Position numbers: made by a program. 11,607 bases of DNA from a virus. Its lineage: Duplodnaviria > Heunggongvirae > Uroviricota > Caudoviricetes. This document shows, piece by piece, positions 1 to 2,796 of the stretch (position 1 is the first letter of the stretch; each line of letters opens with the position of its first letter). The stretch lies in the IMG/VR virus record IMGVR_UViG_2850808358_000010. One strand, 5' to 3'.

Positions 1-2796
1 TTAACGCGTATTTTTCAGCGACTCCTGTGCAAAATACGCTGTTGCTTTTTTTAATATATCTCGCTCAAGGCGAGCTTCATTTAACGCCTTACGCAGTTGC
101 AGAATTTCAGATTCCAGTTCAGCCACCGTGCGGGAACCAGGAGTACCGAGCCCTTTTCTGGCGGCGGTAACCCATTGTCCTAAAGTGCCTTCAGGAAGGG
201 ATAATCGGGAAGCGCCTTCACTGATCGAAAGTTGATTTTCAAGAACCGTTCTGACAGCTTCGGCTTTGAACTCTTTAGAGTAACGTTGGGTTTTTCTGCT
301 CATTATTAGCTCCTTCTGATGCCATTCTATTTCAGGAAGGAGTGTCCGTTAAACTCAGGCTACCTCAGCCTGCCAGCTCCTTACGGGTAGTCGGCTTCGG
401 CTTTCTTCCCCTTCCGGGTGCAACAGATTTTCCTGACATGTCAAATCCTGAAATTTTTAATTTCGCGGGTGTAAAAATTTGACGGGGCGGGCAGTCCGGA
501 AGACGTCAGGTCACAGGGATTTGCCCCGCCCCTCCCTACAAGTGAGAATAATTATCACCTGATTCGTTCGCGCGCTGTTTTCGCTTTATGGCAGGGCCAG
601 CACAGACTCTGCAGGTTGCTGTCTGCGTCTGTTCCGCCATGCGCTTTCGGGATGATGTGGTCGACGGTTTTCGCCTCGCTCACCACACCGACACGCAGAC
701 ACAACTGACACAGACCTTTATCGCGCTTCAGAATACGGGCACGAATCACCGTCCATTTTGAGCCATAGCCACGCTGGTGGCGGCTCAGTCCGCGCTGGTG
801 CTGCACCCAGCCTTCACCGCGATGTTTATCGCAGTAACCCGAACTGTCTGTGGTTGTACCTGCACATCCACGCTTACGGCAGGCACGTGGGATTAGTGAT
901 GGCATAAATACCTCATACCCTGCGAAATGTTTACCACGATAAAAAGGCTACTTAATGCACTGAGTGCGGATATACTCCTGTGCCCCTTCCAGTTGCATCT
1001 GCATCGTCATCAGCCGCTCTCTGAGGGTGAAATAATCCCGTTCAGCGGTGTCTGCCAGTCGGGGGCTGGTTGCATTATCCACGCCGGAGGCGGTGGTGGC
1101 TTCACGCACTGACTGACAGACTGCTTTGATGTGCAACCGACGACGACCAGCGGCAACATCATCACGTAGAGCATCATTTTCAGCTTTCGCATCAGCTAAC
1201 TCCTTCAGGTATTTTGCATCGAGTGCAGCAACATCACGCTGGCGTATCTGCATGTCAGTAATGATTGCGGTCGCCTGGTTGAGTTTTTCCTTCACATTAT
1301 CGCGCTGCTCTTTGTAGGTAATGGCGTTATCACGGTAATGATTAGCAGCCAATGACAGGCAGGCGATGATGCAGATAACCAGAGCGGAGATAATCGCGGT
1401 GACTCTGCTCATTGCTGCCCCACAAACAGACTTCACGCTCAATCTCACGACGGGTCATCAGCCCTTTCCATTGCTTACCGCCAGCATATGTCCAGCGACG
1501 TAGCTGGTCACATGCGCCTTTGATATCGCCCTGGTTTATTTTGCGAAGAAGCGTCGATGTTCTGAAATTGCCAGCGCCCACGTTGTAAACGAACGAGTAA
1601 AGAGCGCCGCGCGTTGTTTCCGGTATATCGACTTTGATGTACGGGTTAATTTGTCTGGCGACAGTGGCAAGGTCTTTATTCAGGAGAGCTTTGCATTCTG
1701 CTTCGGTATACGTTTTACCAGGCATGATGTCTTTTCCGGTGTGTCCGTGACATACAGTCCATACACCAATGATATCTTTGTATGGTATGTAGCTGACACC
1801 TTCCAGACCATCGTTACCACCTGGGCCAGTGATTAACACAGATGCTATAGCAACAGCCCCGCCACCAATAGCAACTGCAACAGCCTTGCGTAATGATGGC
1901 GACATTATTCACCTCTCGCAGCCTTACGCTTATCTTCTCTTATTTTGAAATACAGATTCGTCAGATAAGTCAGAAGCCCCAGAAGCAGACTTCCCAGCAC
2001 ACCAATCGCAGCCCACTGTGACGGACTGACCTGATCCAACCACTGCAAAAACCAGTAGCCGGCACTGCCGGCGGAGGTGCCGTAGGCAATGCCTGTTGAT
2101 ATTTTTTCCATCTGATACATATCCCGCCCCCGACAGACCTGTGCTATCGGAAAGAAAAAAGGCCATCAGCAAAACTCTGATGGCCTGAATCACCTTTACC
2201 AATATTGTATGAAAAAACACGCACGTCTAATTGACAATAATTTTCATTTCCATTAAAAAAGATCACGTAGCATTCTTAATTCATGAGGAACTTTACCCGC
2301 CAGCAATCTGAGTAGCGAAAGCTGTTCATCCCCAATGTTTTTGCTGGCGGGTCCTTTTTTCTACGGTCCTCCTCCCCGGAGGGGCATTTCATTATTTTTC
2401 TAATCATTACTGGTGAGAAGGCGGAAGAAAAAGCCAGTTCTTCGCCCCTAAATAACAGCATGATTCCAGTCCATGCAAAATCTGATTTCCAGCTCACACA
2501 TACCGAGCACTGTACAAAAAACCGCCAGCCAAGGCAGTTAAGAGTGTGTTCCCGGGTTTGCTTAGAATATTTTGTAAGTTGTCCGAAGAGATATTTACAA
2601 CACCAGAATGATGCATTATCAGTCCCCTGCCAGAGGTTCACTACGTAACCTGACCGACAATGCACCATTCTGGTGCTGAAAAAAGAGCACTGGAACTGCA
2701 ACAAAACAACATCACAGAACAGGAGATGGTAAGGAGTCAGACATTCCCACACAATATTGTGTCAGTGCAAATAACAACCTTCGTCTCAAATCTCGC

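What the first reader, a model, noticed from the sequence alone, without database searches (positions are those of the whole stretch)
365..554. Candidate cos site and IS-truncated small terminase start downstream of the HNH endonuclease
Between the HNH stop and the IS there is a G/C-rich dyad (CGGGGCGGGCA ... 28 bp ... TGCCCCGCCCC), and a perfect 10-bp palindrome TGACATGTCA (434..443) that overlaps the ATG of a 24-codon stub (MSGKSVAPGRGRKPKPTTRKELAG). The stub resembles the basic N-terminus of P27-type small terminases as recalled and ends in the IS terminal TGA. HNH-dependent cos phages place the cos site exactly between the HNH gene and terS. Packaging would be abolished by the truncation, but the cis site may survive.
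Basis: partly seen in the sequence, partly recalled or inferred. Interest (0 to 1): 0.4.

Follow-up and report, generated by a model that had tools for sequence, protein, structure and literature searches.

The report
Relic phage cos site, IS600-cut terminase
This is the DNA-packaging (cos) site of a dead phiP27/SfI-type prophage in a Shigella chromosome, with the small-terminase gene beside it cut off after 24 codons by an IS600 element; it is an ordinary, already understood kind of feature.

Summary
All genes here read on the minus strand: HNH endonuclease (905..555), a 115-bp spacer, then a 24-codon stub (439..365) whose TGA stop comes from the first bases of IS600. The stub is 24/24 identical to the N-terminus of phiP27 L35, a P27-family small terminase. 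Window 493..484 (minus), TGCCCGCCCC, is identical to the 10-nt cohesive end mapped on phage SfI virion DNA. It aligns with the cos-site annotated in phiP27 (CGCCCGCCCC). The genome records of Burkholderia phages phi1026b and phiE125 start at the homologous +1. Three things need refining:
- The "dyad" is two separately conserved elements, an upstream G-rich box and cosN. Their complementarity does not covary across relatives.
- The 10-bp palindrome at the ATG is no more than chance.
- A third element was missed: ACCCGCG flanked by A/T tracts at +4..+33, where HK97 small terminase binds.

The site is a precise chimera. It is Shigella/SfI-type left of the cut (0/71 mismatches) and phiP27-type right of it (0/44). 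Beyond IS600 lies the host gene ygcN with no target duplication, so the packaging and head genes are not adjacent. Known biology, low interest.

The parts
555..905 (-). Intact HNH endonuclease gene (116 aa). It has an N-terminal zinc-ribbon-like CxxxxC...CxxH and an HNH domain with CxxC...CxxC. It is the packaging-associated HNH that lies immediately upstream of cos.
   Evidence: PF01844 HNH E=1.6e-16. 115/116 aa identical to phiP27 L34 and 116/116 to the HNH of the Shigella loci L003-L010. The order HNH-cos-terS-terL is seen in phiP27, SfI, SfV, ST64B, phi1026b, phiE125 and HK97.
518..536 (-). Conserved G-rich box, GGGAGGGGCGGGGCAAATC, at -53..-35 from the cut. It is proposed to be a cis element on the genome-end side of cos (cosQ-like); that role is inferred.
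   Evidence: G frequency is 0.85 or higher at -52, -49..-45 and -43..-41, followed by (T)C-AAA-GTC, in 68 distinct IMG/VR relatives. It is also present in HK97 and in Burkholderia and Pseudomonas phages, ending 31-34 nt upstream of the cut. Its internal non-G base varies (A/C/T) while the overhang stays the same.
481..496 (.). cosN, read on the + strand as GAC|GGGGCGGGCA|GTC. The 10-nt cohesive end is 484-493 (minus strand 5'-TGCCCGCCCC-3'). Inferred nicks lie between 483/484 on the minus (coding) strand and between 493/494 on the + strand, giving 10-nt 3' overhangs. The flanks have two-fold symmetry.
   Evidence: Identical to the cohesive end mapped on SfI virions (PMC3636060). One base differs from the phiP27 'cos-site'. 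The SfI record ends at this position and the phi1026b and phiE125 records start at the next base. A at -12 is 0.97, C at -11 is 0.88, T at +2 is 0.76 and C at +3 is 0.91 in 68 relatives. The 3' polarity is inferred from the 'gap' result for SfI and from HK97 (PMC11331095).
451..480 (-). Putative small-terminase recognition element (cosB-like). The core ACCCGCG (470..464, +14..+20) is flanked by a perfect 9-bp A/T inverted repeat, AAATTTTTA (480..472) and TAAAAATTT (459..451).
   Evidence: The inverted repeat was found. All 44 bases from the cut to the ATG are identical to phiP27. ACAC-CCGCG-AAATTAAAAATT is conserved in E. coli, Salmonella, Burkholderia and Pseudomonas relatives. The minimal HK97 TerS site is +15..+29 and includes an A-tract (PMC11331095). 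Binding here is inferred by analogy.
434..449 (-). Shine-Dalgarno AGGA (449..446), a 6-nt spacer and the ATG (439..437) of terS. The 10-bp palindrome TGACATGTCA (443..434) spans the start codon.
   Evidence: Read directly from the sequence. The palindrome count in the window equals the chance expectation. The palindrome is absent from the SfI-type, Burkholderia and Pseudomonas terS starts.
365..439 (-). Truncated terS: codons 1-24 of a P27-family small terminase, followed by a TGA supplied by IS600.
   Evidence: 24/24 aa identical to phiP27 L35, with 4 synonymous nucleotide differences. L35 hits PF05119 over residues 54-147 and TIGR01558 over 46-154, so the stub lies wholly outside the family domain and itself has no hit.
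1..367 (-). Left end of IS600 (IS3 family): the terminal TGAGGTAGCC and orfA (303..1). The element runs off the window.
   Evidence: 367/367 identical to the full IS600 copy at 8364-9627. PGAP names identical copies 'IS3-like element IS600 family transposase'. orfA hits PF01527 HTH_Tnp_1. In the source record the 1264-bp IS is followed by the interior of ygcN, and the flanks are GGC and GTG, so there is no target duplication.

Best explanation
Window 440-554 is the cohesive-end (cos) packaging site of a defective HK97-like, HNH-dependent lambdoid prophage of the phiP27/SfI/SfV group. The prophage sits in a Shigella chromosome (record CP026877.1).

In a live phage of this type the late transcript runs through the lysis genes, the HNH gene, cos and terS. 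Small terminase binds just downstream of the cut, here at the ACCCGCG core with its A/T tracts (451-480). Large terminase, helped by the HNH endonuclease, then nicks both strands 5' of the symmetric GTC triplets of GAC|N10|GTC (481-496). This leaves 10-nt 3' overhangs of TGCCCGCCCC. Packaging proceeds from the cut towards terS.

The upstream G-rich box (518-536) is a third conserved cis element, probably acting on the genome-end (termination) side. It is not one half of a functional hairpin.

In this strain the machine is dead. An IS600-mediated rearrangement removed terS after codon 24, so terL and the head genes no longer follow. The cis site itself is intact: it is identical to functional phages on each side of the cut.

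Shown: the homology, the positions of mapped ends in relatives, the conservation, the truncation and the rearranged junction. Inferred: the 3' polarity here, TerS binding at 451-480, which protein makes which nick, and any role for the G box.
For: - phiP27 matches window 368-905 at 95.2% identity, and its record annotates a 10-nt cos-site aligned to 493..484.
- The cohesive end mapped on SfI virions, TGCCCGCCCC, is identical to the window (PMC3636060; record ends).
- The phi1026b and phiE125 genome records start at the base homologous to window 483.
- The order HNH-cos-terS-terL holds in all relatives examined.
- The stub equals the first 24 residues of phiP27 L35, and L35 is a PF05119/TIGR01558 member.
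- The G box, the GAC/NTC flanks and the ACCCGCG + A/T element are conserved in 68 distinct IMG/VR relatives and in 11 named phages.
- HK97 TerS binds at +15..+29 including an A-tract, the HK97 overhang is 10 nt and 3', and gp74 (HNH) stimulates cos cleavage (PMC11331095; PMC9410871).
- Cos-adjacent phage HNH nickases cut CG^GT (AC^CG). That is the bottom-strand nick sequence of phiP27 cos (GAC|CG); the window has AC|TG (PMC3592412).
- The IS600 boundary is verified inside the window.
- The window is 100% identical to CP026877.1, where ygcN follows the IS.
Against: - No ends have been mapped in this strain, and nothing here shows that the site is ever cut.
- This exact combination (T-type overhang and Shigella-type left side joined to a phiP27-type right side) was found only with the same IS600 truncation: one IMG/VR contig, and none among species-representative genomes, JGI metagenomes or 5,426 E. 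coli genomes. No live phage demonstrates that the chimeric cos works.
- HK97 gp1 has no Pfam or NCBIfam hit. Transferring its DNA-binding mode to P27-type TerS is therefore an analogy supported only by the similar DNA motif and position.
- The IMG/VR sample is dominated by closely related Pseudomonas-type phages, so the conservation percentages are not phylogenetically independent.
Confidence: 0.9

Rival explanations
1. The G/C dyad (484-491 / 525-532) works as a hairpin or cruciform. It would be either a DNA structure recognised by terminase or HNH, or an RNA stem that terminates or attenuates the late transcript between the HNH gene and terS.
For: - There is an 8-bp perfect GC inverted repeat, extendable with a bulge.
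- The minus-strand RNA of 440-554 folds with this stem at -35 kcal/mol, z = -1.98, with 7 of 200 shuffles folding as well.
- A T-run follows 4 nt after the stem.
- In-register pairing across 11 relatives is 79%, against about 50% when the partner is slid.
Against: - There is no covariation: 89 of 500 shuffles reach the observed percentage paired.
- In IMG/VR relatives the internal base of the G box changes among A, C and T while the overhang CGCGCCCTCA stays fixed. In phi1026b and the HK97-like sequences the two elements share little or no complementarity.
- The terminator scan found nothing in 300-1000, and the loop would be 33 nt.
- There is no Rfam hit in the region.
- terS, terL and the head genes need read-through of this spacer.
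- A G-rich box upstream of a C-rich overhang gives partial complementarity for free.
Confidence: 0.06
2. The perfect palindrome TGACATGTCA over the terS ATG is a protein operator. It could serve, for example, for TerS autoregulation or as a second terminase-binding site.
For: It is a perfect 10-bp palindrome placed exactly on the start codon. It is identical in phiP27, in E. coli A8 and in three IMG/VR relatives. HK97 has TTGACATATG at its terS start.
Against: - Ten such palindromes occur in the window, against 11.4 +/- 3.3 expected.
- It lies in a stretch that is 100% identical among the phiP27-type sequences, so its conservation there carries no information.
- It is absent from the SfI-type, Burkholderia and Pseudomonas terS starts, which keep every other cos element.
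- It is composed of an SD-to-ATG spacer, the ATG and a Ser codon.
Confidence: 0.04
3. The relic is still used. A superinfecting or co-resident phage with P27-type small terminase recognises this chromosomal cos, cuts it, and starts packaging towards IS600 and ygcN. The result would be a chromosome break, or occasional transfer of adjacent host DNA.
For: - Every cis element is intact and identical to functional phages: 0/44 mismatches to phiP27 on the right of the cut, and the overhang equals that of SfI.
- Satellites such as SaPIbov5 are packaged solely because they carry a helper-type cos site (PMC5052747).
- The HNH gene is intact.
Against: - Cos packaging needs a second cos at about one genome length to terminate (PMC5052747). 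None is known here.
- phiP27-type terS is rare: 18 of 5,426 E. coli genomes.
- There is no experimental evidence of any kind.
Confidence: 0.12

Closest known systems
cos sites of Shigella phages SfI/SfV/SfII/SfIV and of Stx2e phage phiP27 (10-nt cohesive ends between the HNH gene and terS)
   Same: The overhang is identical to SfI's (TGCCCGCCCC) and differs by one base from phiP27's (CGCCCGCCCC). The gene order is the same. The left flank is identical to the SfI-type Shigella prophages, and the right flank plus the terS start is identical to phiP27.
   Different: It is a chimera of the two types, joined inside the cohesive end. It is not attached to a working terminase, because IS600 removed terS after codon 24.
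HK97 cos / gp1 (TerS) / gp2 (TerL) / gp74 (HNH) packaging system
   Same: The layout is HNH-cos-terS-terL, and the overhang is 10 nt. A G-rich box followed by CAAATC ends 34 nt upstream of the cut. GAC immediately precedes the overhang. An ACCCG motif with an A/T tract lies about 15-30 bp downstream, where HK97 TerS binds.
   Different: HK97 gp1 is not detectably a Terminase_4/P27-family protein. HK97 gp74 lacks the N-terminal zinc ribbon that this HNH has (PMC3592412). The overhang sequence differs (CGCCGCCAAA).
Phage lambda cos (cosQ-cosN-cosB)
   Same: The logic is tripartite. There is an upstream element on the genome-end side, a nicking site with partial two-fold symmetry, and a downstream small-terminase binding region next to the small-terminase gene (lambda organisation from established knowledge; cosQ reference cited in PMC11331095).
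   Different: Lambda has 12-nt 5' overhangs, no HNH protein and an unrelated small terminase (Nu1). The cosQ-like role of the G box here is only an inference.
cos-carrying phage satellites (SaPIbov4/SaPIbov5)
   Same: Both are chromosomal elements that keep a helper-type cos site without a terminase of their own (PMC5052747).
   Different: Those are mobile, inducible islands of packageable size. This is a decayed prophage riddled with IS elements, with no sign of satellite functions.

Membership tests
HNH-dependent (HK97-like) cos site of the phiP27/SfI type | Lies between a packaging-associated HNH endonuclease gene and terS | tested here: met
   HNH is at 905..555, the spacer at 554..440 and the terS start at 439. 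The same order is seen in all relatives.
HNH-dependent (HK97-like) cos site of the phiP27/SfI type | Contains the 10-nt cohesive-end sequence at the position mapped in relatives | tested here: met
   493..484 reads TGCCCGCCCC, which equals the mapped SfI end (PMC3636060). It aligns to the phiP27 'cos-site'. The record ends of SfI, phi1026b and phiE125 coincide with it.
HNH-dependent (HK97-like) cos site of the phiP27/SfI type | Flanking conserved cis elements: the G box upstream and the ACCCGCG + A/T tracts downstream | tested here: met
   Both are present at the conserved distances. The right side is 44/44 identical to phiP27 and the left side 71/71 identical to the Shigella SfI-type loci.
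HNH-dependent (HK97-like) cos site of the phiP27/SfI type | Is actually cleaved by terminase plus HNH to give cohesive ends | not testable with these tools
   This needs virion-end mapping or an in vitro cleavage assay. No live phage with this exact chimeric site was found.
P27-family small terminase (PF05119 Terminase_4 / TIGR01558) | Profile match over the oligomerisation/core domain | tested here: not met
   The 24-aa stub has no hit. In phiP27 L35 the profiles cover residues 54-147 and 46-154, all downstream of the truncation. The stub is a gene fragment, not a family member.
P27-family small terminase (PF05119 Terminase_4 / TIGR01558) | Orthology of the surviving N-terminus to a bona fide member | tested here: met
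   24/24 aa identical to phiP27 L35, with only synonymous DNA differences. The motif GRGRKPKPTxRKxLAG is conserved in six TerS proteins.
IS600 (IS3 family) | Terminal sequence and orfA identical to IS600 | tested here: met
   367/367 identical to the complete copy at 8364-9627. Named IS600 in PGAP annotation. orfA hits PF01527. The element is 1264 bp in the source record.
IS600 (IS3 family) | Simple insertion with a 3-bp target-site duplication and contiguous flanks | tested here: not met
   The flanks are GGC (terS side) and GTG (ygcN side). The far flank is the interior of the host gene ygcN, not terS. This indicates an IS-mediated deletion or inversion after insertion.
Rho-independent terminator | GC-rich stem, loop of 3-8 nt, and an immediately following T-run | tested here: not met
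   No site was found in 300-1000, and the dyad loop would be 33 nt.

The most novel reading that the evidence does not exclude
Two linked readings go beyond what I found described.

1. The break of homology falls exactly inside the 9 shared bases of the cohesive end: 0/71 mismatches to the SfI type on the left and 0/44 to phiP27 on the right. A second example, L006, swaps terS and even the tail type at the same point. This would mean the cos cut itself is the place where packaging modules are exchanged between phages, for example by annealing of near-identical cohesive ends or by break-induced recombination.

2. The strongly conserved G box about 35-53 bp upstream, together with the invariant GAC|..|GTC flanks, would be uncharacterised functional parts of HK97-type cos sites. 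The G box would act as a cosQ-like termination element. The zinc-ribbon HNH would make the invariant bottom-strand nick at CR^GTC.

The relic here would then still be a cleavable site for a P27-type helper phage.
Probability: 0.25. Interest if true: 0.4.

Novelty: already known. Interest (0 to 1): 0.15.

Why it matters
For this window it matters little.

The comparative by-products are mildly useful. The first is a consensus anatomy for P27/HK97-type cos sites: a G box, then GAC|N10|NTC, then a T-tract and ACCCGCG with A-tracts. It could help annotate cos sites and physical genome ends in prophages and viral contigs across Escherichia, Salmonella, Burkholderia and Pseudomonas phages. The second is the observation that mosaic junctions coincide with the cut. 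The third is that the invariant bottom-strand nick sequence matches the CG^GT specificity measured for other cos-adjacent HNH nickases. That gives a concrete, testable division of labour between TerL and HNH, a question the HK97 literature leaves open (PMC11331095).

Tried and rejected
- Hairpin or terminator reading of the dyad. The terminator scan was empty. The RNA fold was only z = -1.98. Pair counting on 11 relatives showed no covariation. G-box variants occur with an unchanged overhang. Rejected.
- Known RNA family in the spacer. Rfam at gathering threshold gave nothing in 365-554.
- Palindrome as a signal. Its count equals the chance expectation and it is not conserved outside the phiP27 type. 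Rejected.
- Exact IS/terS junction in species-representative genomes: 0 hits. The source was instead found through the exact DnaB-like protein, giving CP026877.1 at 100% over 11,607 bp.
- Search for a live phage with the chimeric cos, using a 40-mer across the cut. Genome contigs gave 0, metagenome contigs gave 0, and viral contigs gave 1, which carries the same IS600 junction. Among E. coli complete genomes, 18 have the phiP27-type right side and none the chimera.
- Direct homology of HK97 gp1 to P27-type TerS: no Pfam or NCBIfam hit for gp1. The HK97 comparison therefore rests on the DNA motifs and on position only.
- The original phiP27 paper and Kala et al. 2014 are not held in the library. 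How the phiP27 cos-site was determined could not be read. I rely on the GenBank feature and on the SfI mapping.
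Full report
**1. What is there**

All relevant genes read on the minus strand. From upstream to downstream they are:
- Rz-like spanin, lysozyme and holin genes (2120..948).
- A 116-aa HNH endonuclease gene (905..555; PF01844, E=1.6e-16).
- A 115-bp spacer (554..440).
- An ATG at 439 opening a 24-codon ORF, MSGKSVAPGRGRKPKPTTRKELAG, that stops at TGA 367..365.
- IS600, from 367 down to 1.

The IS boundary can be fixed inside the window. A complete 1264-bp IS600 lies at 8364-9627, and its first 367 bases are identical to the reverse complement of window 1-367, beginning TGAGGTAGCC. 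PGAP annotation of identical copies names the element 'IS3-like element IS600 family transposase'.

**2. Is it more than chance?**

- The palindrome is not. The window holds 10 perfect 10-bp palindromes, against 11.4 +/- 3.3 in shuffles.
- The dyad is imperfect. Only GGGGCGGG/CCCGCCCC (484-491 / 525-532) pairs perfectly.
- An inverted repeat of 8 bp or more occurs in 10% of dinucleotide shuffles of the spacer.
- The spacer also holds a perfect 9-bp A/T inverted repeat (451-459 / 472-480). The combined load of inverted repeats is reached in only 0.5% of shuffles.

**3. Identity by homology**

Window 368-905 matches Stx2e phage phiP27 at 95.2% identity. The phiP27 records annotate L34 (HNH), a 10-nt misc_feature 'cos-site', L35 (small terminase) and L36 (large terminase), in that order.

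The phiP27 cos-site is CGCCCGCCCC. It aligns to window 493..484, TGCCCGCCCC.

The SfI paper reports that direct sequencing of both termini of virion DNA, compared with the prophage, revealed 'a 10 nucleotide (5'-TGCCCGCCCC-3') gap'. The authors took this as the cos site, and it differs from SfV's by one base (PMC3636060). That sequence is identical to the window's. The SfI record ends exactly after it and begins GTCG....

Independently, a sensitive BLAST found that the genome records of Burkholderia phages phi1026b and phiE125 begin at the base homologous to window 483. They share 75-88% identity with the next 42-95 bases.

Several lines therefore put the cut between window 484 and 483: one mapping, one annotation, and record ends in SfI and two Burkholderia phages.

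A 'gap' in run-off reads from both ends implies recessed 5' ends, that is, 3' overhangs. This is my inference. HK97, which has the same layout, has a 10-nt 3' overhang (PMC11331095).

**4. The stub**

phiP27 L35 is 156 aa. Its first 24 residues are identical to the stub, and the four DNA differences are all synonymous.

L35 hits PF05119 Terminase_4 (residues 54-147, E=4.6e-23) and TIGR01558 sm_term_P27 (residues 46-154, E=6.3e-25). The stub alone hits nothing. What survives is only the basic N-terminal arm. Its motif GRGRKPKPTxRKxLAGNPGKR is conserved in six TerS proteins from four genera. None of the domain that defines the family is left.

**5. Anatomy of the site**

I aligned the region in 11 named phages or prophages. 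I also compared 68 distinct upstream regions of P27-type terS genes from IMG/VR, anchored on CCGCG[AT]AA. A constant architecture emerges:
- **G-rich box** at -54..-41, with G at 0.85 or higher at most positions, followed by (T)C-AAA-GTC. In the window this is 518-536.
- **cosN.** GAC immediately precedes the overhang (A at -12 is 0.97, C at -11 is 0.88). Then come ten bases, then NTC (T at +2 is 0.76, C at +3 is 0.91). On the window's + strand this reads GAC|GGGGCGGGCA|GTC (481-496). The flanks are two-fold symmetric, and each strand would be nicked 5' of GTC.
- **Downstream element.** A T-tract at +5..+11 and ACAC-CCGCG-AAATTAAAAATT at +12..+32. In the window this is the ACCCGCG core (470..464) between the 9-bp A/T inverted repeat arms.
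- **Translation start.** The Shine-Dalgarno sequence and the ATG.

HK97 shows the same plan: GGGGGGGGGATCAAATC, then 34 nt, then ...GAC CGCCGCCAAA | GTTTGAATTTAACGCTAACCCGATTTTTTT. Its small terminase has been shown to need the 15 bp at +15..+29, including an A-tract (PMC11331095). By position and motif, the window's 451-480 is the equivalent recognition element. This is an inference, because HK97 gp1 is not detectably related to P27-type TerS.

**6. The dyad is not the functional unit**

- Pair counting of the proposed helix over the 11 relatives gives 79% paired cells, but 89 of 500 shuffles do as well.
- In the IMG/VR set the single non-G base inside the G box varies among A, C and T while the overhang stays CGCGCCCTCA.
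- phi1026b has no complementary stretch of 4 nt or more between the two elements.
- The terminator scan finds nothing.
- Rfam finds nothing in the region.
- The RNA fold is unremarkable, z = -1.98.

The 8-bp complementarity in the E. coli/Shigella clade is best read as a by-product of a G-rich box lying upstream of a C-rich overhang.

**7. How it most likely works**

In a live relative, TerS bound at +14..+33 positions TerL at cosN, and the HNH protein stimulates cutting. This is established for HK97 (PMC9410871; PMC11331095).

The HK97 authors leave open whether TerL cuts one strand and gp74 the other. Cos-adjacent HNH nickases from Gram-positive phages cut CG^GT (AC^CG) (PMC3592412). The invariant bottom-strand site here is exactly that in phiP27, Burkholderia phages and HK97 (GAC|CG). 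In the window and SfI it is CA^GT. The top-strand site varies at +1 (G, A or C).

The window's HNH also has the N-terminal CxxxxC...CxxH zinc ribbon typical of the sequence-specific nickases, which HK97 gp74 lacks. I therefore favour HNH nicking the + strand at 493/494 and TerL nicking the other strand. This is inference only.

**8. State of the locus**

The window is 100% identical to CP026877.1, assembly GCA_002950035.1. The neighbouring accession CP026876.1 is a Shigella boydii plasmid, so S. boydii is likely. This is an inference.

In that record the 1264-bp IS600 is followed by the interior of the core gene ygcN (99.8% identical to E. coli ygcN-ygcO). The flanks are GGC and GTG, so there is no 3-bp duplication. 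terS was therefore not merely interrupted. An IS600-mediated deletion or inversion removed everything downstream. An IMG/VR contig from a related strain carries the same junction.

Other Shigella/E. coli genomes with the identical HNH keep an intact SfI-type terS and terL, and a portal gene cut by IS4.

**9. A chimeric cos**

- Left of the cut (554..484) the window is 71/71 identical to those Shigella SfI-type loci, with 13 mismatches to phiP27.
- Right of the cut (483..440) it is 44/44 identical to phiP27, with 17 mismatches to the SfI type.
- The exchange point lies within the nine shared bases GCCCGCCCC of the cohesive end.
- Locus L006 shows the phiP27-type left half joined, again at the overhang, to a different terS and a contractile-tail module.
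- In E. coli the HNH/left part is common (963 of 5,426 genomes), while the phiP27-type right part is rare (18 genomes).

This fits cos being a module boundary. Whether the cut itself promotes the exchange is speculation.

**10. Verdict**

The feature is a known type of cos site next to an IS-truncated P27-family terS in a degraded prophage. The refinements are:
- Which arm is the cohesive end.
- The G box is an independent element.
- The TerS-site candidate at 451-480 was missed.
- The palindrome is irrelevant.
- The site is chimeric.
- The IS event was a rearrangement, not a simple insertion.

Novelty: already known. Interest: low.

Noticed in passing
window 2797-3107 (-): A cluster of four tRNA genes lies between the antiterminator Q region and the lysis genes: Gly-TCC, Thr-TGT, Arg-TCT and Met-CAT (ARAGORN; Rfam tRNA hits). 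This is the usual position of tRNA genes in lambdoid phages.
   Followed up: no
window 3860-4275 (-): Rfam hits above gathering score to isrK (4186-4262), C4 antisense RNA (4077-4160), c4-a1b1 targets (4223-4275) and sRNA-Xcc1 (3860-3943). They lie just upstream of, and overlapping the start of, an ORF6N-domain gene (3822..3259). This looks like a P1/P7-type C4 antisense-RNA/antirepressor immunity module inside a lambdoid late region.
   Followed up: no
window 4902-6327: A 1426-bp IS4-family element (Nterm_IS4/DDE_Tnp_1 ORFs) is inserted with a perfect 13-bp target duplication, CAGCCTTCCGGAC (4889-4901 and 6328-6340). It splits the RusA-like gene upstream of Q.
   Followed up: partly
window 8364-9627 (+): A second, complete IS600 copy sits next to the DnaB-like replication gene and a phage integrase gene (9668-10867). 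Its flanks (CGT / AAG) also lack a 3-bp duplication. Both IS600 copies therefore look like products of IS-IS recombination rather than simple insertions.
   Followed up: partly
L006 10345-10570 (CAJFAP010000001.1): The same HNH gene and the left half of cos are joined, within the cohesive-end sequence, to an unrelated-looking Terminase_4 terS (160 aa). It is followed by a contractile-tail (sheath/tube) morphogenesis module. This is a second mosaic junction at the cut.
   Followed up: partly
L049, L077 (IMG/VR contigs), position 1: Two metagenomic viral contigs begin exactly at the predicted +1 of cos (GCCTTTC.../GCCTTTT..., 15 nt before the CCGCG core). This suggests that these contig ends are physical genome ends. 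Other contigs start a few bases away or upstream of GAC.
   Followed up: no
window 481-496 and relatives: The bottom-strand nick sequence of this cos family (CG^GTC; CA^GTC in the window) matches the CG^GT specificity reported for cos-adjacent HNH nicking enzymes of Bacillus and Geobacillus phages (PMC3592412).
   Followed up: partly
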